DNA of 62,674 bases, filler included, from 16 parts of 16 records of this genome joined end to end with filler, not necessarily neighbours in it; one strand, 5' to 3'; numbered from the whole stretch's first letter, positions 1,831 through 59,996 are shown. The notes: generated by a model from the letters alone, not told the origin. A program made the numbers and translations.

Positions 1831-2098
1831 AATAGTTTGTATGGTCGCATGGCACCCATAACCCACATGCGACCATACATACTATTTTGTAATTTGAAGT
1901 ACACGTTGTCGCTGAGGCCCGAGGGAATGTTAGCTGTAACGCACGTGTTGGAACATGTGGGATTTCTAAAAAAGATACTACCTCCCTTCACCAAACGAAC
2001 CTGTTGCTGTTTTTTGCTTTCTTTGATGCCAATCTTTGCGTCATAGTGTTTGTGGTACCAGTACTGGAAAGGGTGTGCATCCACCAAAATGACGGTCC

Positions 2099-23032: not shown

Positions 23033-23387
23033 TAAGCTATTGCGTATTTGTCTTGCAGATGGTGAAACAGTGATGCNNNNNNNNNNNNNNNNNNNNNNNN
23101 NNNNNNNNNNNNNNNNNNNNTTAATTAATTAANNNNNNNNNNNNNNNNNNNNNNNNNNNNNNNNNNNNNNNNNNNNACACACCACATAAAGGTTTCGTAA
23201 AGTTTTGCTTGGTACACACATTTACTCTTCGTTTTTACGAAAATAATGAATGCCACCATAGATACATCACTGATACAACTAAAAGCTTAAGAAATTTTCA
23301 TTTTGTTTTTAAGTAAAACGAATACACGACAGCAAACAATATCTTGTTGAGAACATCTTATGAACAATGACAAGAGATATAACTTAC

Positions 23388-28606: not shown

Positions 28607-28991
28607 CTAAAAGATGCAACAGCACAAAAAAAGCATTATTCGCTTGACAATTGCAATAAACCAGGAAATCGTGAAAAATGTTATATAAATGCAAAACATA
28701 TAAGATGACACATATTTTGTGCAACTGAGAATAATACCTTTCCCGACGAAGAAAAATGCCGTGGACAATAAAAAAGAAATACAATTAATTGATGCCAACT
28801 GTAATAGTAACATCAAAATGTTAGGAACAAAATTATCCAAAATAGAGGCGGTGAATCCTTGTTTTCTCTCCCTCCACAAAAATATTCATTTTTCAGTTTA
28901 ATTTTAAGATTTTGATTTGGTTTCAACAAAAACTACAAATATAAAAAACAAAAACAAATTCTTTTCACAAACAGAAAACACAAACTAATAC

Positions 28992-29513
28992 CTACAGCCA
29001 TCTTCTAACACGATCATGCCACTCCTTCTTGCTTGAGTTGGACTTAATCTGTTTTTCATCTATTTTAAAGACTTGAGAAACATTCATTTCAGTATCGGAA
29101 CCATCAAGAGCAGAGTCATCACGTACCGTGTCATCACGTGCAGTGTCAAGATGATCAACAGTTTCCAGTTCAAAAACGCTGTTCAGTTTTGCATTCACAT
29201 GACCATATGCCATTTTCTTAAACATTCTATCTCCTAAGTTAGATTTCGCCATGTTGTCGCGATATAAAATTGATTCCTTTCCCTCCACTATTTCAGCGTC
29301 AAACACACCTCTTGCCTTCTGAAAACATAATGCATTTACAACACCTTCAACAAGTTTCGTGTATGTTGGATTAAATGCAAATGCCATGGAATGGTGACAA
29401 AATATATGATCCACACATTTCGTATCCACAAATTCTGGTGTGTAATCAAGAGGATTAACAGAATTCATATCTGCTTTCAACACGGTAACAGTTGGAAGCA
29501 CGGCGAGTGGCAA
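28992..29513 (-). CDS. Eukaryotic ORF or exon, unknown function, possibly an upstream part of the spliced gene
   Basis: 173-aa ORF followed by a GTATT donor; joining it to the next exon needs a different frame. Confidence 0.35.
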   Translation of the reverse strand: MPLAVLPTVTVLKADMNSVNPLDYTPEFVDTKCVDHIFCHHSMAFAFNPTYTKLVEGVVNALCFQKARGVFDAEIVEGKESILYRDNMAKSNLGDRMFKKMAYGHVNAKLNSVFELETVDHLDTARDDTVRDDSALDGSDTEMNVSQVFKIDEKQIKSNSSKKEWHDRVRRWL

Positions 29514-29744
29514 CGAAATTTGATCGCGTTGACAGTGGAATAGAGCATCAGTGCGAGCTAAAGAGAGTATAAAACAAAAAAATTAACCAAGACATATCAT
29601 CGATTTTAATTGGCTGGGTGTTGGTTAATGTGGGTGTTGGTTAANNNNNNNNNNNNNNNNNNNNNNNNNNNNNNNNNNNNNNNNNNNNTTAATTAATTAA
29701 NNNNNNNNNNNNNNNNNNNNNNNNNNNNNNNNNNNNNNNNNNNN

Positions 29745-31515
29745 GTTATCGATATCAGTGACAATGTCTTGAGTTTTCTCAATAATTTCTCTAAAACCTC
29801 CCACTGAAGGAGGACAACTTTTCAGAGAATCCAAATTTGAGCCAATCTCTTCGATTTTTTCAATCAATTCTTCCACCTATAACGAAACGAAAGAATAAGC
29901 ACACCAAATTCAAACTTTAGAAAGATATAAGTGAGTAACATAGATAACAAGAAGCCACAAAAAATGAATTGATGAGAAAGAGTGTGGTGACGGTAGTGGA
30001 GTGGCGAATGGTGGGGTGGGTTCGAACGAAGTTATTAAAACGCCGTTTACATAATTATGCACATGGCGTAGCATGTTATAAGATTTATTTTTTTTAATGG
30101 TGGTGTTTTTGCAAAAAAATGAATCGTATTTTTCAAAACATGAATGTTTTATCCAATAAATACTTTTTTGGGCATTATTAAGATTGCTGGTTGTTGTAAA
30201 AATAAGTTTGAAAACATATTTTGACACTTTTCATTCGCTTCGTAAAACCAAGTTGGGCATAAATTTAATATTCACAAAAGAAAAGAAAAAAGGGAAAGTT
30301 CTGTATCGTTCCATTTACAAGAACTGAGCAAAATATTGTTTAATTGATTTTTACTTAGAAATGATGTATTCGAATTGTGCCTTTTTACTACCATGCATGA
30401 TACAGTAGTTTACGGACATACCTTATCCTCAAAATCGGTGGTCGCTTTTGCAAATTCGCCAACATATTCTTTCATCCTTCGTTCATTGAAATGCCAACGT
30501 GTATTACTTCCTCTCATAATACATTCTTGAACAAGTTTCTTGTAGTTTGCAGTCAAAAGTTCAAGGTCTTCATTATCTGTTAATCTTCCACACGTACGCG
30601 CATAAATTTTAACTGCTTCTTGAAGCCTCACAGCGGATGGATATTTCGCGCGAGCCTCTGACGCAGCAATCTAAATAATGTATTAAAAAAAAGAATGAAA
30701 ATGAGGGTGTTCCAGTACGCTTCGAGTGGTGGGTGTTATATAATATTTTTTCTTCCTTTCAACAAAAATGTTTGATACAACAAAATATTCAGGGGGTTTT
30801 CAACACACACAAAAAATATCCAGTCAGCTGATATGAAAATGAGGGATACTATTGCGTAATGTTCTTGAAGGGGGTGGTTGTAGAAAACATTCAAATTCTC
30901 AGAATTTCCTTTTTTCGAAAGGTATATATTAATTTTAGAAGGGTGTAGGGCTTCAAAAACATATCAAAGTGCCTTGAAATAATGTTAAAAAAAGCAATTT
31001 TAGAAAATGTAACGAGCTTTACAACCAAACGAAAGATTTTCTGCAAAAAAACTGAATTTAAGCATTTCAAGGCAGTACGTAAATCAAAGAGCGAAAAAAA
31101 TGTATGCCATCCAAACTTAATTTGGCCAATGCGCATATTTTCTACACTTTCAGGCGTGTGGAAATGAATCTTTTTTGAAGAGTTTTTATAGAAATAGACG
31201 CTGGTGGTATTAAAACAAATATCTAGTCTATTACGTAGATACAAAACAAGTTCTACAAAAATACTAAGAAGTTTCGATCGCAAGAGCACACCATACCTTA
31301 ATCTCATATGGTATTCTGAGTCCAAGGTGCGTAAGATTTCTGACTTCTTTGAAAAGAGTGATTATATCTTGATCGAAATTGACAATTAATCGCGGTGGTT
31401 GATTTTGAGATGAATGAACGGTGAATACTGTGCCATCGATGTCAAAATCTTTCATTTGACCAACTTCTTGAAGCCAATCGGTAAATATTACACCTGGCTG
31501 GAGACGTGTTTTAAA
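29745..31515 (-). CDS. Cytoplasmic dynein heavy chain, three internal exons (tail region)
   Basis: Phase-0 exons 31515-31297, 30670-30422, 29876-29745 give ...LIVNFDQDIITLFKEVRNLTHLGLRIPYEIK|IAASEARAKYPSAVRLQEAVKIYARTC...FEDK|VEELI..., collinear with the dynein-1 heavy chain tail. Confidence 0.88.
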
Positions 31516-32021
31516 CTAAAAACAACAAGAAAGAAAAAGAAAGAAAAATAATTAAATCATGCTTCAATCTAAAAGATGTTTCGAATTTTTGAGATTTTGT
31601 CCTCCAAAATTGGCAATTTGTACCAATTTCTATTGTGTAAAAACAGAAAAACATCAGCACGAACAAAAACCTGGCACAACAATTCATTACTTGTAGGTAA
31701 TAAATCTTTTAAGAGTTACTCTAAATAAAATCTCGAGAGCGGATTAGCAACAAAATAAATTTAGAAACTTGCTTTTTTATTGAAATGGTCCTCATAAAAA
31801 TGGCCTGAACATGAAATTGTGAAATAAGGGGTGTGTGTGTGTGTGTGGTGGGTGGTGNNNNNNNNNNNNNNNNNNNNNNNNNNNNNNNNNNNNNNNNNNN
31901 NTTAATTAATTAANNNNNNNNNNNNNNNNNNNNNNNNNNNNNNNNNNNNNNNNNNNNCACTTTTCATTTTTGCTTAGCCTACTGCCTCCAGCCTTTTGTC
32001 TTGCAGTCTATTCTTTACTAT

Positions 32022-35921: not shown

Positions 35922-36206
35922 NNNNNNNNNNNNNNNNNNNNNNNNNNNNNNNNNNNNNNNNNNNNTTAATTAATTAANNNNNNNNNNNNNNNNNNNNNNN
36001 NNNNNNNNNNNNNNNNNNNNNCGTAAAATTTTACACTCGCCAAAAAAATTTTCAATTTGTGAAAAACCTCAAAATTTTCCAGATTGTTGTAGTTTTCAAA
36101 ATTTGTGAACTTTTTGTATAAGTCACCGGCTTTTAGAAACATAAAATTTGCAAATACATATACATCACAGATCCAACATACTGACGTATAATAGAATAAT
36201 TATTAC

Positions 36207-37477
36207 CTGTCGATGGATGAATAAGAAGAATCTTTCGCGAAGTAGACCCCCGGTCCATGGACTGCGACTTGCGTGAATTCGCGAAGGAAACCATTTTTAC
36301 AAATTGATTCGATGTGTTCTGCAGCGGTTCCATGAAATACGCGCCTTGATGTCTAAATACGTACGTATTATGAAAGTTTTATTGAAGGAACTTATTTTCA
36401 TTGAAAAGTTGTTTTTTAACCACAGATTTACTTGAGAATTTTCTACGCATTGTTTTCCCCAGTGGCAACATTGGCAAAATGGGGGTGTAGCTTCGCAAGA
36501 TAAGCAGCATTTTTAGGCTTATTGGACATGAATTTTTTTTAAAATACATATAAATTAAATCGCTAAAAATTAAAATTGACAATGTGGGTGTCAATTTATT
36601 TTTACGGAGAAGCTCATTTGGAAAAGAAAACTAGCCCGACGCTAAATTTCTAAATTTGTAGGAATCGCAAGAGAACAGAACGGGCATTACAAAAGTAAGG
36701 TCATTCTCTGAATGAAATGTACTATGGGATAGTAGTCAAGTCATGAAGCCATAGAAAATCCTGGCATCAGCAGATTTATGGCCAACTTATGCGAAGAAGC
36801 AAGATTATATTGGATGGATAGTAGATAGATAGTACTTTTAAAATTTTCGAAGACCAACATACTTCTTTTTTGACTTCAACCATTCATTTTCTCATCCACA
36901 AATTTTAGTTCTAGTTTGAGTAAGAGTTGCTGCTATTAAAGGACATGTTGTGAGCTGATTATACTATACTATACTCATCTTGAAGAATTTGAAACACCCA
37001 ATCGAAAAGAAAACCATTTTTTGTGTGTTGTTTGTTTTCACTCTTTGAAAATCCACGAAAGTATTTGTTGATTTTTCACAACAACAAAAATTGTGTAAGG
37101 AAAAATTACTACAGGTTTATACGCAAAATCAGCGATATCAAATCAAATATCAACAGTTGTTGCAATAAATTTTTACTTGTGGTATTTTCGGACGCACAAA
37201 AGCGGACTTCAATAAATCTAGTGTGAGTTGTGTGGTACAAAAAAATCATGTATCATGTAACTAACCGAAGTTTTCATCATTTCATCAGTGACCTTTTCAA
37301 AATTCTTAAAGTGTCGATACAATAATGGATTCACCACTGCTTCAACTTTAACTATCTCAAAAAGAGCACTGTGAGTTGTATCAAATACCAATCGTTCAAT
37401 TTCTTTATATTCAATATCGTCTTTCGGAAGCTCACTTATCTCGAATTCCGTTGATTGGTTCCAATATCTTGGGAATT
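36207..37477 (-). CDS. Eukaryotic PARP-family ADP-ribosyltransferase catalytic domain, two exons (absent from the ORF track)
   Basis: Exons 37477-37266 and 36352-36207 splice in phase: FPRYWN...EYKEIE...IVKVEAVVNPLLY...|TSRRVFHGTAAEHIESICKNGFLREF...GPGVYFAKDSSYS. Confidence 0.85.
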
Positions 37478-38212
37478 CTAGTACACAACAAAGGAGACAA
37501 GATATTAGTCATGTAAATTTTGCATATCCTTTCGGGCCTCCGAATGTATTTCCGTGAGTACTTGCTCAATTTCCAAGCGTGCTGTTTTATTAAAAAGACG
37601 ACATCGAGTTCTGGTGATTTTTGAGATTTTTATTTTCCCAAATAGTTTTGAGCATATCAACGAGCATAAAAATGGATTTTCTATCTTCGCGAGTTTTAAT
37701 ATCCTGGCAATGTGCAGTACCTTGTTGGAAAACACTTGGATTTATTTTTCTTTTGCATCATACGCACTTTGAAAATGCTCATTAATATTGGGTGGGTGTG
37801 GGGTGTGGGGGGAAAAGAGTTTTTTTTAGTTATGGCGCAGCAATATCGCTGACATTTACTGTCATCTTTTGCGTGCGGTAGTGTCAAACATTGTATTAAA
37901 TGCCAGCGAATACACCCACATTTTTGTAGAATATTCTCAGAATAATCAATTTTTTTATAATTTCGTACTTCTGAGAAACGACACTCCTTTTTACAGACAG
38001 AAAAACAACGAAAAAGGATATTTTGTTTTCTATTGTACGTACAGTACAGTAAAAGTTCACTTAAGAGGCCCGCCTCTTAAACGAAATTGTTGTGAAAAAA
38101 AGTTGATGCGCCNNNNNNNNNNNNNNNNNNNNNNNNNNNNNNNNNNNNNNNNNNNNTTAATTAATTAANNNNNNNNNNNNNNNNNNNNNNNNNNNNNNNN
38201 NNNNNNNNNNNN

Positions 38213-40143: not shown

Positions 40144-40377
40144 CCATTTATACTCCAGACAGTTCGCAACCTAAATTTTTCCAGATTTGAATATCTCTGT
40201 AAGAGAATTTTGTCCTTTGCGTTGGCAAGCTTCTCAAAAGTTACGGTNNNNNNNNNNNNNNNNNNNNNNNNNNNNNNNNNNNNNNNNNNNNTTAATTAAT
40301 TAANNNNNNNNNNNNNNNNNNNNNNNNNNNNNNNNNNNNNNNNNNNNCAAAAGCCTGTCTATAGAAATAGAAAATTT

Positions 40378-41954
40378 GTATCCGCTCAAAAAATACTGGC
40401 AAATAAAAATATATTGAATTTTTCCTAATAGAAATAACCATCAAATAGGGTTGATATTTTGTAATAAACCCTTTTATTTATAGTAGTTTTTTTCCTATAT
40501 TTACGTATGAAAAATCAAGAAATTTTTGATGAAATATCAAAATTAGATTTAGCCCATATAAAAGATAATTCTCTCAAGAACGTTTCTAGATTAATGCTCA
40601 ATCTAATTGAAGATTTGCAACAAGAAGTTTTAAAATTAAAAAAGGTAAATCAATCTCAACGAGACGAAATAAATAGGCTAAAAGGAGAACAAGGCAAGCC
40701 TACTATTAAGTCAAATACTAAATCTAAAGATTATTCTACAAAGGGTAAGGAGAATAAAAAGAAAAAACACCTTAAAAAAGGTAAGAAAGCACATATAAAG
40801 ATTGATCAGACAATAAAGATTAACCTAAACAAAGAAGATATGCCTAAGGATGTTGTTTTTAAATATTGGGACGATGTCATTACTCAAGATATTGTTTTTC
40901 AAGTAAAAAACAGTTGCTATAAACTTGCTGTTTATTACTCCCCATCTTTAGGTAAAACATTTAGAGCCAAAGCACCTCATGGAGCTTCTTATCATTCTAA
41001 TAATTTACAAAGTTTTATCATTACATTAAACAAAGTTCTGGATGTTACAGAAGCAAAGATTTTAATGCTCCTTAAGAGTATTGGTATTAAAATTTCTAAA
41101 GGTAGTTTATCTACTATTTTATTAAAGTATACCGCTATTGCCCAACAGGAAAAACAAGAAATTCTTAAAGCAGGTTTAACAAGTTCGTATGTTCAAACAG
41201 ATATTATTTTAAAAACTAATGAAGTAGTTACTTTAGGAGATTTTACAAATTTTATAAAACAGAAACTTCCTGATTTATACCAAAAGAAAAATATCTTTAT
41301 GAAAGTAAAATCTGCTTTAGCGATAGCATACTATAACTATCAAGACAAAATTCCAAAGGTGAGTTCTCTAGTGAGTGATAATGCTCCAGAGTACAATAAA
41401 ATATCTGTTAAACACCAGTCATTATGTTGGGTACACGATGCTAGATATTATAAAAAGCTAAACCCCATTTTAGAAATACATAAGAGATATCTGACTGATT
41501 TTATAAAACTATATTGGGCTTTTTATCATAAATTGTTGGATTATAAAAAAAGACCAAGCAAAGAATTGGCTCATAAGATAAGTATTGATTTTGATAAATT
41601 ATTCACCTCCAAAACAAACTATTTTCATCTAGACAAACTAATAGATAAAACTTTTAAAAACAAAGATAAATTACTCACCGTGTTAGTAAAACCAGAAATA
41701 CCATTACATAACAACCTTGCAGAATTGGGAGCAAGAAGAAAGGTTAGAAAAAGAGACATATCCTATCATACAATGTCTGATAAGGGAACTCTTTGCCCAG
41801 ATGCTTTTATGACCATAACACAAACCGCAATACAACTCAATGTCGATGTGTTTCAGTACATAAAGCAAATGATTAACAGAAAACAAGATAGAGTAACTCT
41901 TGCTGATTTAATACTGCTGAAAAATTAATATTCCATTGTTTTTTGAGCGGATAC
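40378..41954 (+). mobile_element. IS66-family insertion sequence, 1,577 bp
   Basis: 22-bp TIRs GTATCCGCTCAAAAAA(T/C)A(C/A)TGG at 40378-40399 and 41933-41954; no target duplication. Confidence 0.88.
40507..41928 (+). CDS. IS66-family transposase, probably internally deleted
   Basis: Leucine zipper RDEINRLKGEQGKP, LVSD.A..Y, LCWVHDARYYKK, PLHNNLAELGARRKVRKRDIS. Confidence 0.8.
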   Translation: MKNQEIFDEISKLDLAHIKDNSLKNVSRLMLNLIEDLQQEVLKLKKVNQSQRDEINRLKGEQGKPTIKSNTKSKDYSTKGKENKKKKHLKKGKKAHIKIDQTIKINLNKEDMPKDVVFKYWDDVITQDIVFQVKNSCYKLAVYYSPSLGKTFRAKAPHGASYHSNNLQSFIITLNKVLDVTEAKILMLLKSIGIKISKGSLSTILLKYTAIAQQEKQEILKAGLTSSYVQTDIILKTNEVVTLGDFTNFIKQKLPDLYQKKNIFMKVKSALAIAYYNYQDKIPKVSSLVSDNAPEYNKISVKHQSLCWVHDARYYKKLNPILEIHKRYLTDFIKLYWAFYHKLLDYKKRPSKELAHKISIDFDKLFTSKTNYFHLDKLIDKTFKNKDKLLTVLVKPEIPLHNNLAELGARRKVRKRDISYHTMSDKGTLCPDAFMTITQTAIQLNVDVFQYIKQMINRKQDRVTLADLILLKN

Positions 41955-42354
41955 GTTACATACACTTTCACTTTTGTTAATCAAAGAATTAGAATTTTTA
42001 TGTGGATATCCTTCAACTTCACTTAACGAAAGACTATTTGTTGATGAAGGTAGAATGCAAGGAGTACTGTTGTATACAATAGCAGGTGCAGAAGGTAGTT
42101 ATGGAGGATTAGTGTCACAAGCAACTGAAGAACGAACGTTGAGGTTGCTAAAGTCTGCAATTTACAGAGCTACGGATTGTGCTTCCGATCCAATATGTTA
42201 TAACACAGATGATGGTCAAGGTATAGGAGGATTAAATATGGCAGCTTGTTATAGTTGTACTTTAATCCCTGAAAATGCATGTGAAGAGTTTAATTCTTTT
42301 TTAGATAGATCATTATTAATAGATGAAGATTATGGTTTTTTAAAGGTTTGTTAA
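41955..42354 (+). pseudogene. drmB: DrmB-like DUF1998 domain, 5'-truncated by IS66
   Basis: LHTLSLLLIKELEFLCGYP..SL.ERL, EGSYGGL, CASDPIC, AACYSC.L.PE..CE.FN..LDR; frame begins at the IS end. Confidence 0.8.
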
Positions 42355-42369
42355 ATTAATATTTTGGAA

Positions 42370-45300
42370 ATGCAACAATTCAAAGCAGCATATATATTAG
42401 AAGGCATCCAAGAGCAATTAAAAGAGTTCGATACTAATCGAATAAAAGGTTTATTGGATTACTTAAGTAGTTTTGATGTTGAGACTAACATAGCAGAAAT
42501 AACTATTGAAAATAAATTTAAACCCTACTTTAATGTAATTCAGAACCAAATAGTAAGAGGCTTACCAACGAAACCAACAGTTTTTATTGAGGAAACTTTT
42601 GCGCGATTATATGATAGCCAAGAAAAAGATGATTCAGCCTTAGCAAAGCAACTAGGATATATTGCCTTTAGGGCTACCGATAATAAAACAAATAATCAAG
42701 TCTTTAAGGCGTTACATCTAATAGATCCTAGGTTGCAGTATGATGAATCAAGTTACAATACACAACTATTGGGAAGTAATTTCGAAAAAGAGTTTTTATT
42801 CAATTATTTAAACCGTAATCAAGCTTCATATCTAATTCAAATATTACAACCTCAAAGACATATAGATACAATTGTTCCTAAAGAAAAAGCTAATGAATTC
42901 AATCAGCAACAAGTTGATTTTGCAATAGAATCGCCTTATAAAAGTTCTTTTACCTATAAAAAATATAGTGAAGAAAAAACAGGCTATCGTAAAAACATTG
43001 GAGCTATTGTTGAAATTGATGGCGTACAATATCATTCAGTGTTTTCCCAAAAAGTATTAGATAATTATCGAGATAATACAGTACAGCAAGGAAATTGGGA
43101 ATCAATCCGTGTCAACAATTTAAGAGAAGATACCGTGCTCCCTTGGTTATCTAAACAAGATAAGGAATTAAGTGATTATTTAAAAGTAATTCAAGAGAAT
43201 GCAAATGCTTCATTGCAAGACACTAAATGGCGGGAGATTTTAGAGCAAACATTAGCGCCAATAGCCATTGCAAGGTTACAAAAAACAATTATTGATCAGT
43301 TAATTTCGGGCGTATTAAATGTAGAAGATAAAGAGTGGAATATTGCCGTTATAGAAAGAGATATTCCCTGTGCTAAATTAGCATTTAAGGATATAGATAC
43401 CTCATTAAAAAAAATACTTTTATTAAGTACAGATAAAAAAATTAGGGAAACTATACTACCAATATTAAACCTTACAATTATATCTTCAAAAGAGTTTGAA
43501 AATTCAAAGTTACATCTTAACCATAAGGTTGTTTTGCAAAATGAGTTTTCAAATGATAAAGATTATGATTTGGTTGTTGATATATCTATGCTTCGTCGTT
43601 CTCAATTAGAAAAATCTGAAACCAATTCGGTTAAAAATTGGATTAAAATTAGAAGCGTACATTATGTAAATTCTAAAAGAAAAATATACACATCTGACAC
43701 GATTAAATATAGAAAACTTACTAAAAAGAAAGATAATGATGTCTATGAAGTTTATGATGAAGCAAGTGACATTCTAAAATATTTCGTTCAAAATATTTTT
43801 AGAAAAAATGACTTCAGAAAAGGACAGTTACCCATTCTTAATAGAGCCTTACAAGGGAAAAGTGTAATAGGTTTGTTGCCTACAGGAGGAGGTAAATCCT
43901 TGACTTATCAATTGGCATCTATGATGCAACCTGGGGTAACTATGGTTATTGACCCTATTAAGTCTTTAATGCAAGATCAATTTGATAGTTTAATTAGATT
44001 AAACATTGATGCATGTAATTTTATTAATTCTAAATTAGATCGATTTGAAAAGGATATTGCTACTAATCAACTTACAGAAGGGGAGATCATATTCAATTTT
44101 ATTTCACCAGAAAGATTACAAATTCAAAGTTTTAGGGATGCACTTAATTCAATGTATAATAAAGATGTATATTTTAGTTATTGCGTAATAGATGAGGTTC
44201 ATTGTGTTTCAGAATGGGGTCACGATTTTAGAACATCTTATTTAAGTTTAGGAAAAAATGCTATTGAACATTGTAAAACAAAAGGATATCCTGACAAGTT
44301 GTTACCTGTGTTTGGTCTTACCGCAACAGCCTCTTACGATGTATTATCTGATGTAGAAAGAGAGTTGTCTGGAAATGGCAGGACAGATCTAGACTCCGAA
44401 GCTATTGTGAGGTTTGAAAACAGTAATAGGGATGAGCTTCAATATAATGTCGTTGAGGTAAACGTTGACTTTGAAAGAGAAGAAAGTTTTATAAAAACAC
44501 TACCAAATGGCGAGCAGTTAAATTTTTCAATAACACCTTTAAAAACAGGTGCAAAAGATAAAATTGCAATCGCAAAACAAGAAAACCTAATTACTTTGCT
44601 TGACAAGATTCCTGTCAAGTTATCAGAATTTAATGGACAAGTAGATTTCTTAAAAGAAAAAGCGCATGAACGTGTTAATGATTTATCCCAAAGGGATGAT
44701 GTTAATATTTATATAGAAAATTTAAATATATCAGATTTTTATAATCCTATTATAAAAGAAAATAAAGAATTTTATAGTAATGCAGGTATCGTATTTACGC
44801 CACATAGAAGATGGTATCAAGGAGTAACAGATCAGTTTAAAAATGACATCTACAGTCAGGATATTCTAGATGATTATGGCAATATAATCCATCGAGGAGG
44901 TGATTTGATTAGGGATGCAGAAGGTAATGATGTTAGAATGCCACTGGATAAACGTAAGGGAATTGCAGATAAAATATTGCGAGATGCTTCACGTTTAAAA
45001 GTAGGTGTGTTTATGGGGTCTTCAGATGATTCAGAAAAAGTAGATAAAGAAATTGAAGCCAAATCTTTTGCTAATCAATATAAATTTATAAACAATCAAC
45101 AAAGTGTAATGGTAGCTACCAAAGCTTTTGGTATGGGTATAGACAAACCGAACGTTCGCTACACAATTCATTTCAATTATCCAGGGTCTATAGAAAGCTT
45201 TGTTCAAGAAGCAGGTCGTGCAGGTCGTGATAGAAAGTTAGCTTTAAATTCAATTCTCTTTAATAAGCAACAATTAATTTCATTTGAACCAGATTTTTAC

Positions 45301-46734
45301 AACAAAATAGATGGTAGAATAGATCTAGAGTCTTTTAATAAGTTACGATTGTTAAGGGGTAAGCAATTTCTTAAAGAAGATGTACCAAAGCTTTGTAATT
45401 CATTGGGAATTGAGAATTTGTCTCAAAATGTAGCTTTTAATGAGTCTATTGCTATTAAGAATTTAGACAGGGACAATCTCGCATATTTTCACAATAATTC
45501 ATTTAAAGGAGAAGACAAGGAAAAAGTAATGATATTCGAATTGCTTAATAATATTACCTATCCTAATCAAAAAGTAACTTTTAATCTTGCGGAAGAGGTA
45601 GAAGATATAACAGGTGAATCAGATATTTGTATTCGTATAAATAAAAATTGGTTAAATGTAAATGCTGATTTTAGAAACAGAGTAGGAGCTATTAATCTCA
45701 ATACTTTCAACTATGCGTATAATTTCACGGTTTATGAAATAGCAGATGCAAAACAAATTTTAGATGTAGCTAAAAGTTTAATACAATCAAATTTCCCTGA
45801 ATACAACAACACAAATATGTTAACCCATTGGTTAAACAGTACACAAGATAGAACAGCACAACCAGGGATTGAAAAAAGATTGATGGATTGTGAGACTGCC
45901 CAAGAAATTAATCCACAAATTGAAGTAAATTTTTCCAATAAGTTTGCTGACAAATCTTATTATATTGACAGTCTAACAAGAAAAATGCAACAAGTAATTC
46001 ACCCGAATATTAATCAAAATAATATTGAAGCATGTCTTTGTTCAAACTATGAAGAGTTTATAAAAAAACTGATAGCATTAATACCAGATTTAAATATTAA
46101 TGATTTAGACCCTGAAATTATTGAAAAAGGTAAAACAAGGTTTTATAGTCAACGAAGAAAAGACGATACAGATAAAGCTCTCTTTAGATTATTGTCTATA
46201 GGTGTAATCGACGATTATACTGTAGATTATAATTTAAAAACCTATACAATTAAAGTCACAAAAAAAGAAGCTGGAGAGTATATTAATTGCTTATTTGAAT
46301 ATATTAAAAGATACTATTCCGAAAGTAGAGCAAAACAAGAAATTAAAAAAGTAAAAGAGTATAAAGGAAATACAGAGATTCAAAAATGTTTAGGGTTCTT
46401 AACAGATTTCGTTTACAGGGAAGTTGAAACAAAACGATTAAGGGCTATTGATGATATGATATTAGCGTGTAGAATTGGTTTGGGAGAAAATGGAAATGAA
46501 GAGTTAAAAGATTTTATTTTCTTGTACTTTAATTCAAAATATGCTAAAGTTGATTATACGATTGATGTAGATAGTGAAGAAGTGCCTTATTCTTTGTCAG
46601 AAGACACAGATTTTGGTAAAGACTTTAACTTTGAGACAGTATGGAAGTTTATCAAAGCTATAGAAATTGATAGAGGAGGAGAAAAGGATAATATAAAACA
46701 TTTAAGAGGAGCGTGTTTAAGACTATTAATTTAG
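42370..46734 (+). CDS. Large RecQ-family helicase with an N-terminal PD-(D/E)xK-like nuclease region
   Basis: FRKGQ, LPTGGGKSLTYQL, VIDEVHCVSEWGHDFR, GLTATA, ATKAFGMGIDK, QEAGRAGRD; N-terminal QVDFAIE...IVEIDGVQYH. Confidence 0.88.
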   Translation: MQQFKAAYILEGIQEQLKEFDTNRIKGLLDYLSSFDVETNIAEITIENKFKPYFNVIQNQIVRGLPTKPTVFIEETFARLYDSQEKDDSALAKQLGYIAFRATDNKTNNQVFKALHLIDPRLQYDESSYNTQLLGSNFEKEFLFNYLNRNQASYLIQILQPQRHIDTIVPKEKANEFNQQQVDFAIESPYKSSFTYKKYSEEKTGYRKNIGAIVEIDGVQYHSVFSQKVLDNYRDNTVQQGNWESIRVNNLREDTVLPWLSKQDKELSDYLKVIQENANASLQDTKWREILEQTLAPIAIARLQKTIIDQLISGVLNVEDKEWNIAVIERDIPCAKLAFKDIDTSLKKILLLSTDKKIRETILPILNLTIISSKEFENSKLHLNHKVVLQNEFSNDKDYDLVVDISMLRRSQLEKSETNSVKNWIKIRSVHYVNSKRKIYTSDTIKYRKLTKKKDNDVYEVYDEASDILKYFVQNIFRKNDFRKGQLPILNRALQGKSVIGLLPTGGGKSLTYQLASMMQPGVTMVIDPIKSLMQDQFDSLIRLNIDACNFINSKLDRFEKDIATNQLTEGEIIFNFISPERLQIQSFRDALNSMYNKDVYFSYCVIDEVHCVSEWGHDFRTSYLSLGKNAIEHCKTKGYPDKLLPVFGLTATASYDVLSDVERELSGNGRTDLDSEAIVRFENSNRDELQYNVVEVNVDFEREESFIKTLPNGEQLNFSITPLKTGAKDKIAIAKQENLITLLDKIPVKLSEFNGQVDFLKEKAHERVNDLSQRDDVNIYIENLNISDFYNPIIKENKEFYSNAGIVFTPHRRWYQGVTDQFKNDIYSQDILDDYGNIIHRGGDLIRDAEGNDVRMPLDKRKGIADKILRDASRLKVGVFMGSSDDSEKVDKEIEAKSFANQYKFINNQQSVMVATKAFGMGIDKPNVRYTIHFNYPGSIESFVQEAGRAGRDRKLALNSILFNKQQLISFEPDFYNKIDGRIDLESFNKLRLLRGKQFLKEDVPKLCNSLGIENLSQNVAFNESIAIKNLDRDNLAYFHNNSFKGEDKEKVMIFELLNNITYPNQKVTFNLAEEVEDITGESDICIRINKNWLNVNADFRNRVGAINLNTFNYAYNFTVYEIADAKQILDVAKSLIQSNFPEYNNTNMLTHWLNSTQDRTAQPGIEKRLMDCETAQEINPQIEVNFSNKFADKSYYIDSLTRKMQQVIHPNINQNNIEACLCSNYEEFIKKLIALIPDLNINDLDPEIIEKGKTRFYSQRRKDDTDKALFRLLSIGVIDDYTVDYNLKTYTIKVTKKEAGEYINCLFEYIKRYYSESRAKQEIKKVKEYKGNTEIQKCLGFLTDFVYREVETKRLRAIDDMILACRIGLGENGNEELKDFIFLYFNSKYAKVDYTIDVDSEEVPYSLSEDTDFGKDFNFETVWKFIKAIEIDRGGEKDNIKHLRGACLRLLI

Positions 46735-46858
46735 TACATGACAAAAAAAACAATTCCTNNNNNNNNNNNNNNNNNNNNNNNNNNNNNNNNNNNNNNNNNN
46801 NNTTAATTAATTAANNNNNNNNNNNNNNNNNNNNNNNNNNNNNNNNNNNNNNNNNNNN

Positions 46859-50145: not shown

Positions 50146-51459
50146 ATGAAAGCAAAAGCGACCACAGTAGAATCAATTGTGATCAAAAATCTTTTTGAGC
50201 TATTTGACTATGAGATTGAATACAAAACGGTTAAAAATGTGCGGATCATAACAGGTCCCAATGGATTTGGAAAAACGCAGGTTTTAAATATTTTATACAA
50301 TCTATTTGAAAGAAAATTTTTGTTTTTTCAAAGACTCGTATTTGATAAAATTACGGTAAATCTAAGTGACAAAAGAAAGATTGAAATAGTAAAAAATAAG
50401 AAGAATACTCTTTCTTTCCTTTTCTTTAAAGACGCTAAAAAGATTGAAACAGTAAATAATTCTTCTATCATCAAAGATTTAACAATAGAGATTGAAAGAT
50501 ATCTTCCTTTTCTTCACAGAAGAGTAGAAGAAGATGAATGGCTCGATCTCAGAACAGATCAATTATTATCTACTTATGAAGTAATAAATAAATATGGAGA
50601 TCTGCTTCCAAGCAGGATAAATAAAAGTTATTCCGATATAGAATTTGAAGAAACCAATAAAATCTTAGATTCTATAAAGGTTCACCTAATAAAAGAGCAA
50701 CGACTTTATAAAAAGAGCAACTCTCCTAAGAGAAATCATCGGAGAGAACCTGAACAAACAGTAATAACTGAAACCATTCAGACCTATGCGGATGAATTGA
50801 AGTCTGTTTTATCAAAAAAAGGTCTAGAGTCTTATAGCATATCTCAAAATTTAGATAATACGTATCCAAAGAGACTTATTCAAGAAAAAAACAAAGTAGA
50901 AAAAGAAGAATATAACGAAAGATTTTCCAAATTAAAGCAAAAACAGGAAAGGTTAACTAAAAACGGACTGTATAAAACTCAAAAAAAGGGTTTATCATAC
51001 AGTAAAGAGGATTCTAAAGCTCTTTTGGTTTATTTGAATGACTTGGAACAGAAACTTAGTACATTCGATGATTTGTTAGAAAAGTTAGAATTGTTTGCAA
51101 GTATTTTAAATAAAAGAAGATTTACCTTTAAGTCCATTTACATTGACGAAGAAAAGGGCTTCTATTTCAAAACCAATAAGGGAAAAGAATTGAACCTAAA
51201 TCAACTTTCTTCAGGCGAACAACATGAGGTAATTCTCCTTTATGAATTGATTTTCAAAACGGAATCAAGTACCTTAGTTTTAATTGACGAACCTGAAATA
51301 TCACTTCACGTAACCTGGCAAAAGGAATTTTTGGAAGATCTTTTAAAAATTATAAAAATTCAAAAATTTCAAGTGCTTATAGCCACACATTCTCCTTCGA
51401 TAATTAATGACCGATGGGACTTAGTTTACAATCTTGAAAAAACAAGTCCTGATGCATAA
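50146..51459 (+). CDS. ABC-type ATPase (AAA_15/AAA_21), PARIS AriA-like
   Basis: GPNGFGKT, coiled insert, LSSGEQ, LIDEPE, ATHSP; overlaps the DUF4435 gene. Confidence 0.8.
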   Translation: MKAKATTVESIVIKNLFELFDYEIEYKTVKNVRIITGPNGFGKTQVLNILYNLFERKFLFFQRLVFDKITVNLSDKRKIEIVKNKKNTLSFLFFKDAKKIETVNNSSIIKDLTIEIERYLPFLHRRVEEDEWLDLRTDQLLSTYEVINKYGDLLPSRINKSYSDIEFEETNKILDSIKVHLIKEQRLYKKSNSPKRNHRREPEQTVITETIQTYADELKSVLSKKGLESYSISQNLDNTYPKRLIQEKNKVEKEEYNERFSKLKQKQERLTKNGLYKTQKKGLSYSKEDSKALLVYLNDLEQKLSTFDDLLEKLELFASILNKRRFTFKSIYIDEEKGFYFKTNKGKELNLNQLSSGEQHEVILLYELIFKTESSTLVLIDEPEISLHVTWQKEFLEDLLKIIKIQKFQVLIATHSPSIINDRWDLVYNLEKTSPDA

Positions 51460-52116
51460 GGCAACGATTACATTTCAAGAGAAGTTCAATGAGTTGCAAC
51501 TTGATATTTCTCACCCAAATAGTGCGAGACTAAATTTTATCTTCGTAGAAGGAGAAAGCGATGTTAAACTTTTTAGAAAGCTATTTAATCTTAAAACATG
51601 CAAAGTTGAAAATGTGCCAGGGGGTACTATAAAACTTGAAGAATGCGTTGCTTCTTTGGTAAAGGTTTCTCCTTTAATTGTTGGAGTAAGAGATGCCGAT
51701 TTTTATCATTTAGAAAATAAGGATCGGTATTCAAAACCAAGTATTTTTCTAACCGATTGCCATGATATTGAATTAACAATGCTCAAAGACGATACCGTTT
51801 TAAATGCCCTCGTTTTTGAGTATACAGATTTGGAAACTGATGAACAGAACTTAAGGAATAAAATTTTAGAAACTATTAAAATGGTTGGATTTCTAAAATG
51901 GCTCAATCATTTAGAAGATTTAAAATTAAACTTTAAGTCGTCAGGATTCCAAAATTTAATTTCATTTACAAATCTTAACATAGATTTTGAAACATACTTA
52001 ACAAGAGTTTTATCAAAATCTCCGAATGCACAGATTTCTGATCCAGAAGAAATTAAGACCAGAGTACAATCCCTTTTAGAAAAAAATCCTGATTTATTTC
52101 AATTGACCAATGGACA
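51452..52116 (+). CDS. DUF4435 TOPRIM-like protein, PARIS AriB-like, 3'-truncated at contig end
   Basis: FVEGESD, RDADF (DxD), TDCHDIE; ATG overlaps the ATPase stop by 8 nt. Confidence 0.78.
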
Positions 52117-55391: not shown

Positions 55392-56748
55392 NNNNNNNNN
55401 NNNNNNNNNNNNNNNNNNNNNNNNNNNNNNNNNNNTTAATTAATTAANNNNNNNNNNNNNNNNNNNNNNNNNNNNNNNNNNNNNNNNNNNNTTTCAATTT
55501 CCTAATTTTTCAATTTTCGAATGGAGTGGCTGCTGACGCGATAATTTGCTTTTTTTAAAAATGTGTTTTTTAAAATCCGAACTAAAATTTTCATTTCTTT
55601 GAATAGAGGGTGTCTTTTACATGGAATAAGGGGTGTGAGTAGGTGGTGTGGGTAGTGTGAGACATGTGTGCTATTATTCATTCACTATCAAAAACAAAAA
55701 TAACAATATCTTGTAAGTACATAGAGAGGTATTTGTTCCAACTAAGGGGCAACAATTTTGTGTTTTTCTGATACTTATTGTCAATAAATGAAAAATTAAA
55801 GAATTATCTTGCTGTCCATTTTTCAGTTTTTCCTGGTGCCACACAAAATTAATTCTTTGTGCAGTAGCATCGCGAACAAAACTTGAAACATCGCGAGGGT
55901 TCTTTTAGTTAGCCTCAAAATTAATTCACGGTCAAAATGGCGTTAGAAGCAAAAGATATAGTTTTTGACAATGTAAAACCATGGTGTTTCTCCTTCTTCC
56001 ATTTCCACAGTAAAAAAATATGAAAAATAAAAAGTGAATATATAAGATTGTAACGGAAATGAAACATTCTCCTAGAAAATTGTGGTGTTTGCATGGAGAA
56101 ACACTGTTTCCAAACAAAATTACAAAAATATGGTAAGCATGAAAAACTTGCACTTTCAGAAATATGCAAAACAATAATTTGGCATGACAGAAAAAATGAT
56201 TTTGTAGCACGAACAAATCTTGGCGAGCCCTTTTTTCCTCTCAAAAATGTTTCATTTTCGCTGTGAACTTAAATTTACACTTTTAGGTTCATATTATGGC
56301 GGCCTTACGTAGTGAATAGAATTATTGCGAAAGGCGCGAGGTTGTTCGTAGGGCCGTCACACTTAAAATATACAAAATGATGCGAGAAAGAGGACGAAAA
56401 AAGAACGTGACACCCACCTAATGAATCTTCACATCCACAAAGCGAGATTGAGAGAAAGAGAAAGGACCAAATACACAGTTCTCTTTGTTGTGAATTCATT
56501 TCTGTGGTTAGTTCTCTACTTTTTCGGTGTCAAGATGAACGATTGTTTGACTCCATGCAATAGATGAATTTCTTTTAAAAAAACCGCGGTTCGAAACCCT
56601 TAATTTAAACTGTTGCCCCACTTTCAAGTCGGGTCAAACTGAATGGTAGAGAATAAAAAGTTAACCCGTTTAATTTCACTTTTGCTTGTGAATGAAAATA
56701 ATAGTAAAAAGAGGGTATAGGTTAAAATCAGTGTTTAGGTTTACGATC

Positions 56749-57749
56749 ATGAAAGTGGCAAGCAGTTTTTTCTTTGTTTTAATAGCTGTTGGAGTGGTTT
56801 CAAGTCAGGTGGTTGTCCCTGGTGAAGAGACCCGGTACAGCTTCCCTCATGATGGGCTGCAGAGAGAGTTTTTGCTTTTCGTTCCCGCCAATTACACTCC
56901 ACAGTACGATCCACTCCCATTGCTGTACTCGTTCCATGGTGCCGGCGGGTATGAAAATGCAGCTGCTTTTGTTGATTGACGGTTTCACTACAATCCTTTC
57001 CAAACAAACAATCTCAGTTATGGGACATCTTTTGGCAGTTTTGTACATGAAATGATTTTTATGTTTTTCTTGCCAAATATTCGTTTGTTTCAATATTTTT
57101 AAAAATCTTTTTCCAAAGCTGAAAGTTTTATGCTTATTCTGGTTCTTGTGAAGAAAACACGATGGCTTGGGTCAAGATAAAAACTTGCGTTTGATGTGAT
57201 TTCGAGACTACTTTGAAAGTTATGTTTTGCATCATCAAGTATCTTTCTACATCACAAAAAAGGTGAATTTGTTTGTGTGGCGTTTTTAACAATGCGTGTT
57301 TTCAAGGCAGAGGGGGTTATGTTTTGCATTAACACAAACGACAAAGAAAATGGGTGATAATTCCCGCAGAAGTGAGCAGGCAAAACGCAATTTTTTGATA
57401 ATGCAAAGATGCAAAACATAGTGGTGTGTGGGAGTGGTGTGGTGTGGTGTGTGTGTGGGTGTAAAACACACAAAACGAAAATTTTCAAGTTTAATCTTAT
57501 TTTTAGCACAGCAGAAGGCGAAGTGAGATTGTCTGATTCTTCATACGTCGCTGAGAAATTCCAATGGGCAGTTGTGTACCCGGAAGGAATTAATAATGTT
57601 TGGAATTCCGCGTGTTGTGGAGACAATGGAGGAGTTGATGATGTTGGATTCACACGAGAAATACTTCGATATGTCACTGACGTTTTAGGAGTACAGATAC
57701 GAGTTGATGCAATTTTTACAAGTGGAATGTCAAATGGAGGTTTTATGTC
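56749..57749 (+). CDS. Secreted PHB-depolymerase/LpqC-like alpha/beta hydrolase, spliced, 3'-truncated
   Basis: Exons 56749-56948 and 57507-57749 join in phase 2; signal peptide, REFLLFVP, LLYSFHGAGG, VVYPEG, WN..CC, DDVGF, GMSNGG. Confidence 0.85.
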
Positions 57750-57849
57750 NNNNNNNNNNNNNNNNNNNNNNNNNNNNNNNNNNNNNNNNNNNNTTAATTA
57801 ATTAANNNNNNNNNNNNNNNNNNNNNNNNNNNNNNNNNNNNNNNNNNNN

Positions 57850-58144
57850 CGCAAACATGCTCTTCAGACGCAAATTGAAGCAAGAAGAGCAATTAAAGGG
57901 TTTCAAAGTTGGTGACACTGTAAGGGTTCTCAATGTTGACGACCCAACCAAATCCCTCACTGAAAGGAATGCAATTTTGAAGAAATTCAGGTTCAATCCC
58001 TACTACATCAATTATTGGAGCAAAGACACCTTTACGGTCCAAAAAATAGTGCTGGGTGATGGGGAAACTGAAAAAAGATACATTTTGGAGGCCTTCCCGG
58101 ACTTGAAATTCAAGCCCACCCAACTCCAGAAGGTGAAAAAGTAG
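57850..58144 (+). CDS. C-terminal SH3-like region of a Polinton/Maverick-type integrase, 5'-truncated
   Basis: FKVGDTVRV...Y..YWSKDTFTVQKI...Y.L...F...QLQKV. Confidence 0.6.
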
Positions 58145-59005
58145 CACACATCCGTCAAGACGACTGAGCGGGCGCCTTCCCACCGGCTGAAGCTCAGCCA
58201 CACAAGTTCCTCGACTTGAAATTGAAGGAATTTTCACGGTTGTGTTGCACAGCAGCTGATCCCTGTATCCAAACCTAAACCTTGAATTAATCGGTATTTA
58301 TTGATTGAGCTCAATTTCTACTGGACTAAACCAATTCGAAGCCGTTTGTTTTTTATTTCAAGGCGATGGGTAGGAATTGCGGTTTTTCTTCTGTTTTTTT
58401 GGCCTTCGCATTGACTAGAACCTGAAAAGTCCAGTGCGAGCAGCGCGGGTGTGCAGGTGAGCTCAAAATCCTGATGGTGTCAAAACTAGGAAATGTTGTG
58501 TTGGGGTGGAGGCTTGAGAAAAGTTTTAATTTTGAGTTCTTGATTGTTTTGCCCCAACTGAACAGCTCTTTTTTTCGAGTCGTTTGGCACTTGAGCCTCA
58601 AGTGCTGTAGTGTTGATTGTGGGTGTTTTGTCTGGGTTTGGCAAGATGATTATTTTTGTGCTGGAACGCTTGCCAGCTGTGGTTTCACTTGAAATTTAGC
58701 ACAATTGCACACCGCCTAAAAAAGACTTGACTTGTGGCTCTTCAGTTTTTTCCCCTTGACGCGGACTAGGAAACATATTGTTGGCATTCATCGTTAAAGT
58801 TGATTTTGACCTCTCTGTCCTTGCACACTGATGGCCATGACGGATGTCACCGCTTCAGCCCTCCACATATTTTGTCTCCTTCTCTACCACAAACTCTCCC
58901 CTCCCTCACTCTCTCCTCTCTCTTCATCACTCACCTCTCATCCACCACACTGTGATTTTTCATTCGCTGAGTGATAATTTATTTGTGGTTGTGTTTCATC
59001 AGGCC

Positions 59006-59996
59006 ATGGGCACAACTCCTGACCCAAGAAAAAGAAAGCACGGAGAATTGTCGGACTCTGAAGGTGAGAACATGAAAGATTTAGCTTTTGAAATGTTTTA
59101 TTCCGCACCAGTTTTGAAATTGTGAAATGAAATATCAAAATTTCCAACCCAAGTCTCTTTTCACAAACTTGAAATCGCACCATGTACTAGAAATTTGGGA
59201 GAGGCTTCCTATTAGAGGGTGCTATGGAGTCCAGACATGGCACACGAAGAGAAATACTTGAAAACCCCTTGTGAGCATGACAACTTTGAAAATCTAAAAC
59301 GAAGCCTTCAAGTGCAGTCTTTCCGTGATATTCTGCAAGGCGAAGTGTCATTTTGATGGGGGTCAGAATTTATCTGGTTTTGAGTCTTCCATCCCGACCC
59401 AGATTCGTTTGAAAGGCACCAGAACACAGTACATATGAAGATTTTTAATTGGGTGGTTACAAGATTGGCCTGATCTGATGAGTCATGTAATTCTCTATTT
59501 TTAGAGATGTCGGAACGCTTTTGGAGATGACATGTCATTTTCCCAACGATATGCAAGTGACGACGTCATGTCGCACCTTTTTGGCAGATATCCTTCACGA
59601 AAATACGAGAGCTATTTGCGAAAATGCAGGAGGCACGTTAGACCAGGCCAAATTCAGACTATGTGTAACCACCCAAAAAATATTCTTCATATGGCCCAGT
59701 CATAGAAATTGTGAAGCCCAAATTTTCCGATGATGCCACGACATGCGAAAAATACTGGAAGTGTCATTTGGCGTCACAAAGTTGCGCTGAGAGGTAGGAA
59801 ACTTGCTGGGAAATGTGATAGATACAGGTGATTCCTGTTTTAGCGGGTCTGAAGAAAAAGAAAATCAAACTATTTGAGGACGGAATGGATACAGAATTGC
59901 TAAAAGATGATCCTGACAAAGAACTGATTGGGGACTGGAAGAAAAGAATTCGGGATCTCAAAACGGAACTTGGACAGGAGTCAGAAGAAAAATCTG
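59006..59996 (+). CDS. Probable spliced eukaryotic gene, unknown function
   Basis: Exon-like blocks 59006-59063 (MGTTPDPRKRKH..., GTGAGA donor) and 59828-59996 (CAG acceptor, GTAAGT donor); internal exons unresolved. Confidence 0.35.

What the first reader, a model, noticed from the sequence alone, without database searches (positions are those of the whole stretch)
41955..46734. DrmB (DUF1998) coupled to a ~1,450-aa nuclease-RecQ fusion: candidate non-canonical DISARM-like defence system
Seen: a DrmB-type C-terminal domain with its four Zn cysteines is followed within 15 bp by a giant SF2 helicase. It has all RecQ motifs, a ~470-aa N-terminal extension with VDF...VEIDG..YH (DUF559/Vsr-like endonuclease pattern), large inserts inside the helicase core, and no evident RQC Zn cluster or HRDC. 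Established: in DISARM, drmB pairs with the DrmA helicase and is followed by the PLD nuclease drmC or a methylase; RecQ-like defence proteins (RqlH, PsyrT) pair with DprA-like partners instead. Inference: a DrmAB-type sensor with a helicase-nuclease effector in place of DrmC, an arrangement I do not recognise as described. This copy is damaged by IS66, so intact homologues are needed.
Basis: partly seen in the sequence, partly recalled or inferred. Interest (0 to 1): 0.75.

Follow-up and report, generated by a model that had tools for sequence, protein, structure and literature searches.

The report
Broken nuclease-helicase beside DISARM-like remnant
A giant DNA-unwinding enzyme with a predicted DNA-cutting domain sits next to a fragment of a DISARM anti-virus gene, but in other bacteria the two genes mostly occur apart, the enzyme's steady companion is a small gene for a predicted membrane-anchored rod, and both genes are broken here, so this is likely a wrecked meeting of two separate, unnamed, probable defence modules rather than one new system.

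Summary
In detail: a drmB 3' stub (four Zn cysteines) lies 15 bp before a 1,456-codon RecQ-family gene with an intact, conserved Vsr/DUF559-type nuclease motif. Both genes are cut by insertion sequences; the helicase lacks its last ~107 residues.

The proposed DrmAB-plus-RecQ system is mostly not supported. The closest intact locus is drmE-drmA-drmB-helicase-partner, without drmC or methylase. But drmB lies near the helicase in only 2 of 93 homologous loci. DrmB occurs anywhere in 3 of 100 helicase-bearing genomes, and the helicase in 0 of 31 DrmB-bearing genomes.

The helicase's constant partner is a tail-anchored coiled-coil gene (81 of 91 loci, 6 without room). In the model the nuclease is inserted into a degenerate methyltransferase-like fold. 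Other family members carry an extra methyltransferase and travel with DUF1848 or AlkB-like genes.

Best reading: two independent unnamed modules side by side in a defence island, a methylase-free DrmE-A-B trio and a likely membrane-tethered nuclease-helicase defence pair. No catalogued system or paper found matches the pair; nothing is tested. This scan noted both modules before on other DNA.

The parts
40348..40377 (.). 30-bp end of another multicopy element at the contig's left edge
   Evidence: lies on a 1,446-bp contig of depth 456 against 139 for the main contig
40378..41954 (+). IS66-family insertion sequence; 16-bp terminal inverted repeats 40378-40393 and 41939-41954; transposase ORF 40507-41928
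   Evidence: Pfam DDE_Tnp_IS66 E 8.6e-8; repeats; homology to intact drmB starts right after the right repeat; no target duplication visible
41955..42354 (+). 3' stub of drmB (DUF1998/MZB zinc domain, four cysteines); about 535 upstream codons are not in the window
42364..46734 (+). RecQ-family nuclease-helicase, truncated (1,456 codons of about 1,561; likely start ATG 42370)
42364..43686 (+). N-terminal region: predicted degenerate class I methyltransferase-like fold (aa ~1-130 and ~283-441) that encloses the nuclease
   Evidence: model pLDDT 95.1; best VIA rows Z 8.0-8.5, rmsd 4.2-5.4, 191-203 aligned, plus many methyltransferases at Z 4.5-5.5; Foldseek no match at E 0.001
42769..43164 (+). 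Vsr/DUF559-type nuclease domain (aa 136-267), conserved residues S138, E141, D185, E217, D219, H224, D233, R236, D237 all present
   Evidence: Pfam MTES_1575 weak, E 0.11
43813..45231 (+). RecQ helicase core, motifs 0 to VI, with a long insert between motif III and motif V
45232..46728 (+). family-specific C-terminal region, mostly helical, ending in a helical-repeat bundle whose last four helices are missing here
   Evidence: model of the intact homologue pLDDT 91.3; no fold match above Z 7.2
46729..46758 (.). end of a second multicopy element that truncates the helicase; the partner gene expected downstream is off the contig
   Evidence: shared with a 1,202-bp contig of depth 428; homology to relatives ends here

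Best explanation
This contig holds the IS-broken junction of two gene modules that mostly occur apart in other genomes: the tail of a methylase-free drmE-drmA-drmB trio and the helicase of a nuclease-RecQ plus predicted tail-anchored-partner pair, which likely acts on its own against incoming foreign DNA. Shown: the anatomy, the two breaks, the constant partner gene, the independence of the two modules. Inferred mechanism of the intact pair: the partner (N-terminal coiled coil, C-terminal membrane helix) would hold the helicase at the inner membrane, likely through the helicase's C-terminal helical bundle; the RecQ motor would load on a single-stranded tail or fork of entering or replicating phage or plasmid DNA and move 3' to 5' (direction recalled from RecQ); the degenerate methyltransferase-like fold would act as a nucleic-acid-binding or gating scaffold; and the inserted Vsr-type domain would nick the unwound DNA. 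The copy in this genome is likely dead: drmB is split by IS66 and the helicase is cut off from its last ~107 residues and from its partner.
For: Partner: a same-strand gene ending in a hydrophobic helix follows within 120 bp in 81 of 91 loci; 6 of the 10 misses have no room on the contig; it forms one sequence cluster in 76 of 86 loci. Independence: drmB near the helicase in 2 of 93 loci, 2 of 19 of the window's architecture; DrmB in 1 of 50 and 2 of 50 helicase-bearing genomes, on other contigs, against 11 of 401 and 21 of 401 in family and phylum samples (another query); helicase family in 0 of 31 DrmB-bearing genomes while both positive controls rang. The window's DrmB clade is a trio without C5 methylase, PLD or NERD-UvrD hit in all 12 loci examined, 10 of them without the helicase. 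Defence context: BREX, type I RM, GmrSD, Avs2, retron-like RT, Fic, SNF2-Mrr, an integrase beside L130, three viral contigs and three plasmids. Patchy spread: 4 of 401 Flavobacteriaceae genomes, 1 of 57 in one genus, yet many phyla. Catalytic residues conserved; dN 0.03-0.26 with dS at or near saturation against L130.
Against: No experiment shows defence, cleavage, membrane location or binding. Several loci of the window's architecture show no defence neighbour in the stretch examined (L017, L020, L048, L085, L089). 49 of 83 classifiable family members lack the nuclease altogether, so cutting is not the family's common output. Neighbours such as AlkB-like dioxygenase and DUF1848 fit DNA repair as well. 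Two separate sub-clades (window/L130 and L007) sit beside the same DrmE-A-B clade, and in L130 drmB and the helicase overlap by one base, so some coupling is not excluded. For the 57-82% identical clade only one intact context (L130) was seen. Many genomes searched are incomplete.
Confidence: 0.6

Rival explanations
1. One reading: in one lineage the pair is the plug-in effector of a methylase-free DrmE-A-B sensor, filling the slot that drmC holds in class 2 DISARM; DrmAB would sense a 5' overhang and hand the DNA to the nuclease-helicase.
For: L130 has drmE-drmA-drmB-helicase-partner as one overlapping run and the window keeps the same junction; L007 has the same trio 1.2 kb downstream of an unrelated sub-clade of the pair. 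DrmC is dispensable, often missing, and DISARM may borrow parts from other systems (PMC9142583, passages). Other Bacteroidota DISARM-like loci carry a NERD-UvrD nuclease-helicase instead of DrmC. Both co-occurrences involve the nuclease-bearing architecture.
Against: 10 of 10 trio loci found through DrmB lack the helicase nearby; 0 of 31 DrmB genomes hold it; 17 of 19 loci of this architecture lack drmB; gene order differs between L130 and L007; type I RM is a more frequent neighbour than the trio.
Confidence: 0.15
2. The pair is a mobile DNA-repair or damage-tolerance module: RecQ unwinds at lesions, the Vsr-like domain incises, and relatives use AlkB-like and DUF1848 enzymes to reverse base damage.
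For: AlkB-like 2OG-Fe(II) oxygenase or DUF1848 (CxxxCxxC motif) lies beside 63 of 64 methyltransferase-bearing members; Vsr is a repair nuclease and RecQ a repair helicase (recalled); some loci lie among housekeeping genes.
Against: Rare, patchy and mobile; often inside BREX, type I RM or other defence clusters; a membrane anchor has no obvious role in lesion repair; genomes checked keep other RecQ-like genes.
Confidence: 0.17
3. A PsyrTA/RqlHI-like toxin-antitoxin pair: the nuclease-helicase is toxic to the host's own DNA and the partner keeps it sequestered at the membrane until infection frees it (abortive defence).
For: Near-obligate small downstream partner; PsyrT is the other RecQ-type defence helicase and matches the core (E 6e-57); here and in Flagellimonas IS insertions hit the helicase itself.
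Against: The partner is not DprA-like and the helicase has no PRTase match; no toxicity data.
Confidence: 0.08

Closest known systems
Class 2 DISARM (drmE, drmA, drmB, drmC, drmMII; composition from PMC9252829 and 10.1101/2021.12.28.474362, passages)
   Same: The stub is DrmB; the intact homologue has DrmE-like (Pfam DrmE_C, 27.0 bits at a cut-off of 27), DrmA (PADLOC E 6e-193) and DrmB in that order.
   Different: No drmC and no C5 methylase in 12 of 12 loci of this DrmB clade; the RecQ gene is not a DISARM component and is usually absent from these loci.
PsyrTA / RqlHI
   Same: RecQ-type helicase with an added effector domain plus a small downstream partner gene; helicase core matches PsyrT.
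   Different: Effector is a Vsr-type nuclease, not a PRTase; partner is a tail-anchored coiled coil, not DprA-like; protein is twice as long.
DpdF of the Dpd system
   Same: RecQ-type helicase (best PADLOC match E 1.4e-72, core only) in a system that also holds a DISARM-like DUF1998 helicase (PMC12458937 section 8; PMC9142583).
   Different: 123.6 bits against a cut-off of 550 for NF041063; no dpd gene among the neighbours that were scanned.
Helicase-nuclease defences with a Vsr domain (ARMADA YprA-Vsr fusions; Hhe, composition recalled)
   Same: A DNA motor joined to a Vsr-type nuclease in defence context.
   Different: Motor is RecQ, not YprA or SF1; nuclease is N-terminal and inserted in a methyltransferase-like fold; membrane-anchored partner.
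Housekeeping RecQ (E. coli RecQ 1oyw; TIGR01389)
   Same: All helicase motifs; best solved-structure matches are RecQ, BLM, RECQ1 over aa 462-671.
   Different: 249.8 bits against 640 for TIGR01389; no zinc cluster or HRDC match; about 900 extra residues; patchy and mobile.

Membership tests
DISARM class 2 | drmB with DUF1998 four-cysteine domain | tested here: met
   (stub only in the window; full gene in L130)
DISARM class 2 | drmA helicase directly upstream | tested here: inconclusive
   not in the window (tblastn; contig ends in IS); present in the intact homologue L130
DISARM class 2 | drmE upstream of drmA | tested here: inconclusive
   not in the window; DrmE_C match at the cut-off in L130, no PADLOC DrmE match
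DISARM class 2 | drmC PLD nuclease after drmB | tested here: not met
   the helicase follows drmB in the window and L130; no PLD hit in 12 of 12 loci of the clade; no NF038319 match over cut-off in 5 trio genomes
DISARM class 2 | drmMII C5 methylase in the operon | tested here: not met
   no C5 methylase hit in 12 of 12 loci of the clade, while 10 of 13 other DrmB loci scored; the window's own upstream DNA is missing
RecQ family helicase (TIGR00614) | SF2 core with RecQ motif 0, DEVH, aromatic loop | tested here: met
   220.8 bits against cut-off 219.8; motifs
RecQ family helicase (TIGR00614) | RQC zinc cluster and HRDC domain | tested here: not met
   no Pfam hit at E up to 1; only two cysteines conserved after motif VI in the window's clade, no CxxC; a zinc-free remnant is not excluded (weak RecQL4 row, Z 5.3)
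Vsr/DUF559 nuclease superfamily | fold and conserved acidic and histidine residues | tested here: met
   Z 7.7 rmsd 2.6 to Vsr, with NGO0050, I-Bth0305I, Bax1 and TnsA next on the same stretch; residues conserved; DUF559 on 12-82% of members of nearest Atlas clusters of homologue P0002
Vsr/DUF559 nuclease superfamily | DNA cleavage | not testable with these tools
   needs purified protein
PsyrTA / RqlHI | PRTase domain on the toxin, DprA-like antitoxin | tested here: not met
   no PRTase or DprA match; definition from passages of 10.1101/2022.05.11.491447
Dpd (DpdF) | full-length DpdF score and dpd neighbours | tested here: not met
   123.6 against 550 bits; no dpd neighbour among the representatives scanned, which were not all neighbours
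Class I SAM methyltransferase (N-terminal scaffold) | Rossmann-type fold with a glycine-rich SAM motif | tested here: inconclusive
   fold rows at Z 8.0-8.5 but no Foldseek or Pfam hit and no glycine-rich motif among conserved columns: read as degenerate
Anti-phage defence system (any) | protection in vivo | not testable with these tools
   context only

The most novel reading that the evidence does not exclude
A membrane-tethered RecQ surveillance machine with swappable outputs: one chassis (tail-anchored rod, RecQ motor, methyltransferase-like reader fold) carries either a Vsr nuclease or an extra methyltransferase working with a radical-SAM-like DUF1848 or AlkB enzyme, and in this lineage the nuclease form is the missing cutter of a methylase-free DrmE-A-B DISARM trio.
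Probability: 0.12. Interest if true: 0.8.

Novelty: new variant of a known kind. Interest (0 to 1): 0.45.

Why it matters
The pair is a widespread candidate defence module (388 and 584 relatives of the N-terminal region) that no library model or paper found here names; a 2024 survey lists only DpdF and PsyrT as RecQ-type defence helicases. If it works as proposed it would add a membrane-tethered RecQ nuclease, and its three architectures give a natural experiment on cutting versus modifying foreign DNA. The intact locus L130 also offers a direct test of an open DISARM question, which nuclease acts when DrmC is absent. The window's own copy is broken twice and matters only as a pointer; the link that made the finding exciting is the weakest part.

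Tried and rejected
No whole genome is held for the window, so the rest of drmB, drmA and the partner could not be located; the one sequencing run's contigs stop at multicopy elements on both sides. Idea that the short C-terminus is a natural variant running into the partner's start codon: rejected, the last 30 bases belong to a high-depth element. Idea that the degenerate fold is a duplicate of the extra N-terminal methyltransferase: no profile similarity (hhalign probability 0.1%). C-terminal region: no match by Foldseek, VIA (best Z 7.2) or PDB sequence profile; this does not show a new fold. Complex prediction of the C-terminal region with the partner gave no verdict (score 0.00, alignments not used). 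A maximum-likelihood tree did not finish; FastTree was used, 74 rows, split or partial genes left out. Rfam: no match in the window. Aequorivita genus search did not recover the 66%-identical P0006 locus. Paper searches with no description of the pair or of a drmB-RecQ link: 0; 3 listed, none on it by title or passages seen; 0; 3 listed, titles only; 0; 1; Ofir 2018 is not held. Supplementary candidate lists of large defence screens were not searched and may hold this family.
Full report
Setting. The window is 16 short contigs joined by N linkers. The finding lies on one of 6,411 bp (40348-46758) with three ORFs: an IS66-family transposase, a 126-133-codon stub and a 1,456-codon gene. Neighbouring contigs are not genomic neighbours. 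No whole genome is held. The closest relatives are from Flavobacteriaceae; the host is inferred to be of that kind.

The stub. It matches the last ~120 positions of DrmB models, holds the four-cysteine motif and is 95% identical to the end of a 667-aa DrmB. DNA similarity to that gene begins immediately after the right inverted repeat of the IS66 element, at 41955. The 30 bases left of the element belong to another high-depth element. No part of drmA, drmE or upstream drmB is in the window.

The helicase. All RecQ motifs are intact; it just passes the RecQ-family cut-off and falls far below those of RecQ proper and DpdF. Six of the seven best relatives are 1,561-1,563 aa; the window copy leaves the alignment at residue 1,455 and its last 30 bases lie on a 1,202-bp contig three times as deep as the main one. 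So a second insertion removed ~107 residues, the last four helices of a C-terminal helical bundle in the model of the intact homologue. Against L130, dN is 0.03-0.26 in every domain and 0.04 in the stub, with dS at or near saturation: both genes were under purifying selection, and the damage is inferred to be recent.

N-terminal region. The model of residues 1-460 is confident (pLDDT 95.1). Residues 136-267 align with Vsr (Z 7.7, rmsd 2.6, 93 residues), NGO0050, I-Bth0305I, Bax1 and TnsA; residues ~50-440 around it align with three mitoribosome assembly factors (Z 8.0-8.5, rmsd 4.2-5.4; that these chains are METTL17/Rsm22 methyltransferase-like proteins is recalled) and many class I methyltransferases at Z 4.5-5.5. 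These Z values are middling and Foldseek found nothing at E 0.001; the nuclease call is backed by sequence (D185 in 120, E217 in 117, H224 in 106 of 122; their catalytic role is recalled from the Vsr/DUF559 pattern) and by DUF559 labels on nearest Atlas clusters. The methyltransferase-like scaffold rests on fold alone and has no glycine-rich motif.

Who travels with it. A family-specific pattern gave 120 genome matches, 80 with flanks; with viral, plasmid, metagenome and re-fetched loci 93 homologous loci were read. The next gene downstream ends in a hydrophobic helix in 81 of 91 loci scored (window included); 6 misses have no room, one is just under the threshold, three differ. These partners are 130-380-aa coiled-coil-like proteins with no Pfam family over cut-off in the 4 scanned and no PADLOC match in the 3 scanned. 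In L130 the partner overlaps the helicase stop. In the window it would lie beyond the second insertion.

Three architectures. Of 93 loci scored (window included), 19 have the nuclease only (the window's type), 15 have an extra N-terminal methyltransferase domain plus the nuclease, 49 have the extra domain and no nuclease, 10 are too partial. The extra domain keeps a DWGCG-type motif in 64 of 65 sequences. DUF1848 or an AlkB-like gene lies beside 63 of 64 methyltransferase-bearing members and 0 of 19 nuclease-only members (7 of the 19 have under 2.1 kb upstream, and the window). The tree needs only 5 label changes, so these counts are few independent events.

Testing the DISARM link. The closest intact locus, L130 (76% identical), reads: end of a type I restriction gene, a 404-aa unknown, DrmE-like, DrmA, DrmB, helicase, partner, and an integrase-like gene further on. 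A Haliscomenobacter plasmid has the pair followed after 1.2 kb by the same trio; its helicase is 34.5% identical and in another sub-clade. These are the only 2 of 93 loci with drmB, 2 of 19 of the window's type; a 50-61% identical copy in Flagellimonas follows three unrelated genes instead. Whole-genome searches found DrmB in 1 of 50 and 2 of 50 helicase-bearing genomes, on contigs other than the helicase's (read from contig numbers; one checked), no more than the 11 of 401 and 21 of 401 of family and phylum samples. Conversely the helicase family was found in 0 of 31 DrmB-bearing genomes, both controls ringing. The window's DrmB clade (12 loci) is a DrmE-A-B trio (9 with a DrmE match besides L130; one locus partial, one without a scoring match) with no C5 methylase, PLD or NERD-UvrD hit; the 10 loci found through DrmB lack the helicase. 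Many of these genomes are incomplete, and for the closest clade only one context was seen.

Context. Neighbours include BREX, type I RM, GmrSD, Avs2, a retron-like reverse transcriptase, Fic, SNF2-Mrr; several loci show only housekeeping neighbours. The family is rare per genome (4 of 401) but spread over many phyla, viral contigs and plasmids. This is the pattern of an accessory defence-island module, but it is context, not function.

Mechanism. Shown: domain order, intact motifs, constant partner, independence from DrmAB, both breaks. Inferred: membrane tethering, binding of the partner to the C-terminal bundle, loading on foreign single-stranded tails or forks, nicking by the Vsr domain. 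I put this at 0.6, a coupled DrmAB effector at 0.15, repair at 0.17, a toxin-antitoxin logic at 0.08.

Known systems. PADLOC needs DrmA, B, C, E and MII for class 2 DISARM (PMC9252829, passages); C and MII are missing, so neither the trio nor the five-gene run is a member, though the trio works like a DISARM core; DrmC is dispensable and often absent (PMC9142583 passages; 10.1101/2021.12.28.474362 passages). The YprA-family survey (PMC12458937: abstract, passages, section 8) does not mention RecQ or DrmE in its main text. RecQ-type defence helicases listed in 2024 are DpdF and PsyrT (10.1101/2024.02.29.582594, passages); PsyrTA has a PRTase toxin and DprA-like antitoxin (10.1101/2022.05.11.491447, passages). 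Eight paper searches found no description of this pair; supplements were not read.

Earlier notes of this scan describe the helicase-partner pair in at least seven other genomes and the methylase-free trio in one. The first gave me the lead to look for a membrane partner; they are not independent support.

Verdict. A real but doubly broken locus; the proposed single system is mostly a defence-island adjacency of two unnamed modules. New variant of a known kind; interest 0.45.

Noticed in passing
L160-L163, L169-L172, L176, L177: A second Bacteroidota DISARM-like type: C5 methylase, DrmE-like, NERD-UvrD nuclease-helicase, DrmA, DrmB, without a PLD hit (10 loci with both methylase and NERD-UvrD hits). 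A real case of a nuclease-helicase standing where DrmC is missing; noted earlier by the scan.
   Followed up: partly
L173:7502-12463, L178:6067-11064: DrmA and DrmB fused in one ORF of 1,653 and 1,665 aa.
   Followed up: no
L002, L010, L014 and others: Family members with an extra N-terminal methyltransferase domain almost always have DUF1848 (CxxxCxxC) or an AlkB-like gene next to them; nuclease-only members never did.
   Followed up: partly
window 50146-52116: AAA_15 ATPase plus DUF4435 gene, matching PADLOC AriA (E 5e-26) and AriB (E 6e-14): a PARIS-like pair on another contig, cut by the contig end.
   Followed up: no
window 1-2098, 23177-31857, 36022-38112, 55492-62674: Contigs with little or no ORF of 150 aa or more and no Rfam match; with at least three insertion elements on the finding's contig this suggests an eroding, IS-rich genome (inference).
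   Followed up: no
L135:3780-13168 (Flagellimonas aequoris): Three large genes (RecD-like 1,505 aa, SNF2 1,052 aa, unknown 543 aa) run straight into the helicase, which is itself split by an IS21-like element (family label recalled).
   Followed up: no
L130:653-1867: Unknown 404-aa gene between the type I restriction gene and drmE; no Pfam or PADLOC match.
   Followed up: no
L010, L012, L073, L139, L141: The methyltransferase-type pair with its AlkB-like gene sits inside or at the end of BREX operons, between pglX and pglZ in three of them.
   Followed up: no
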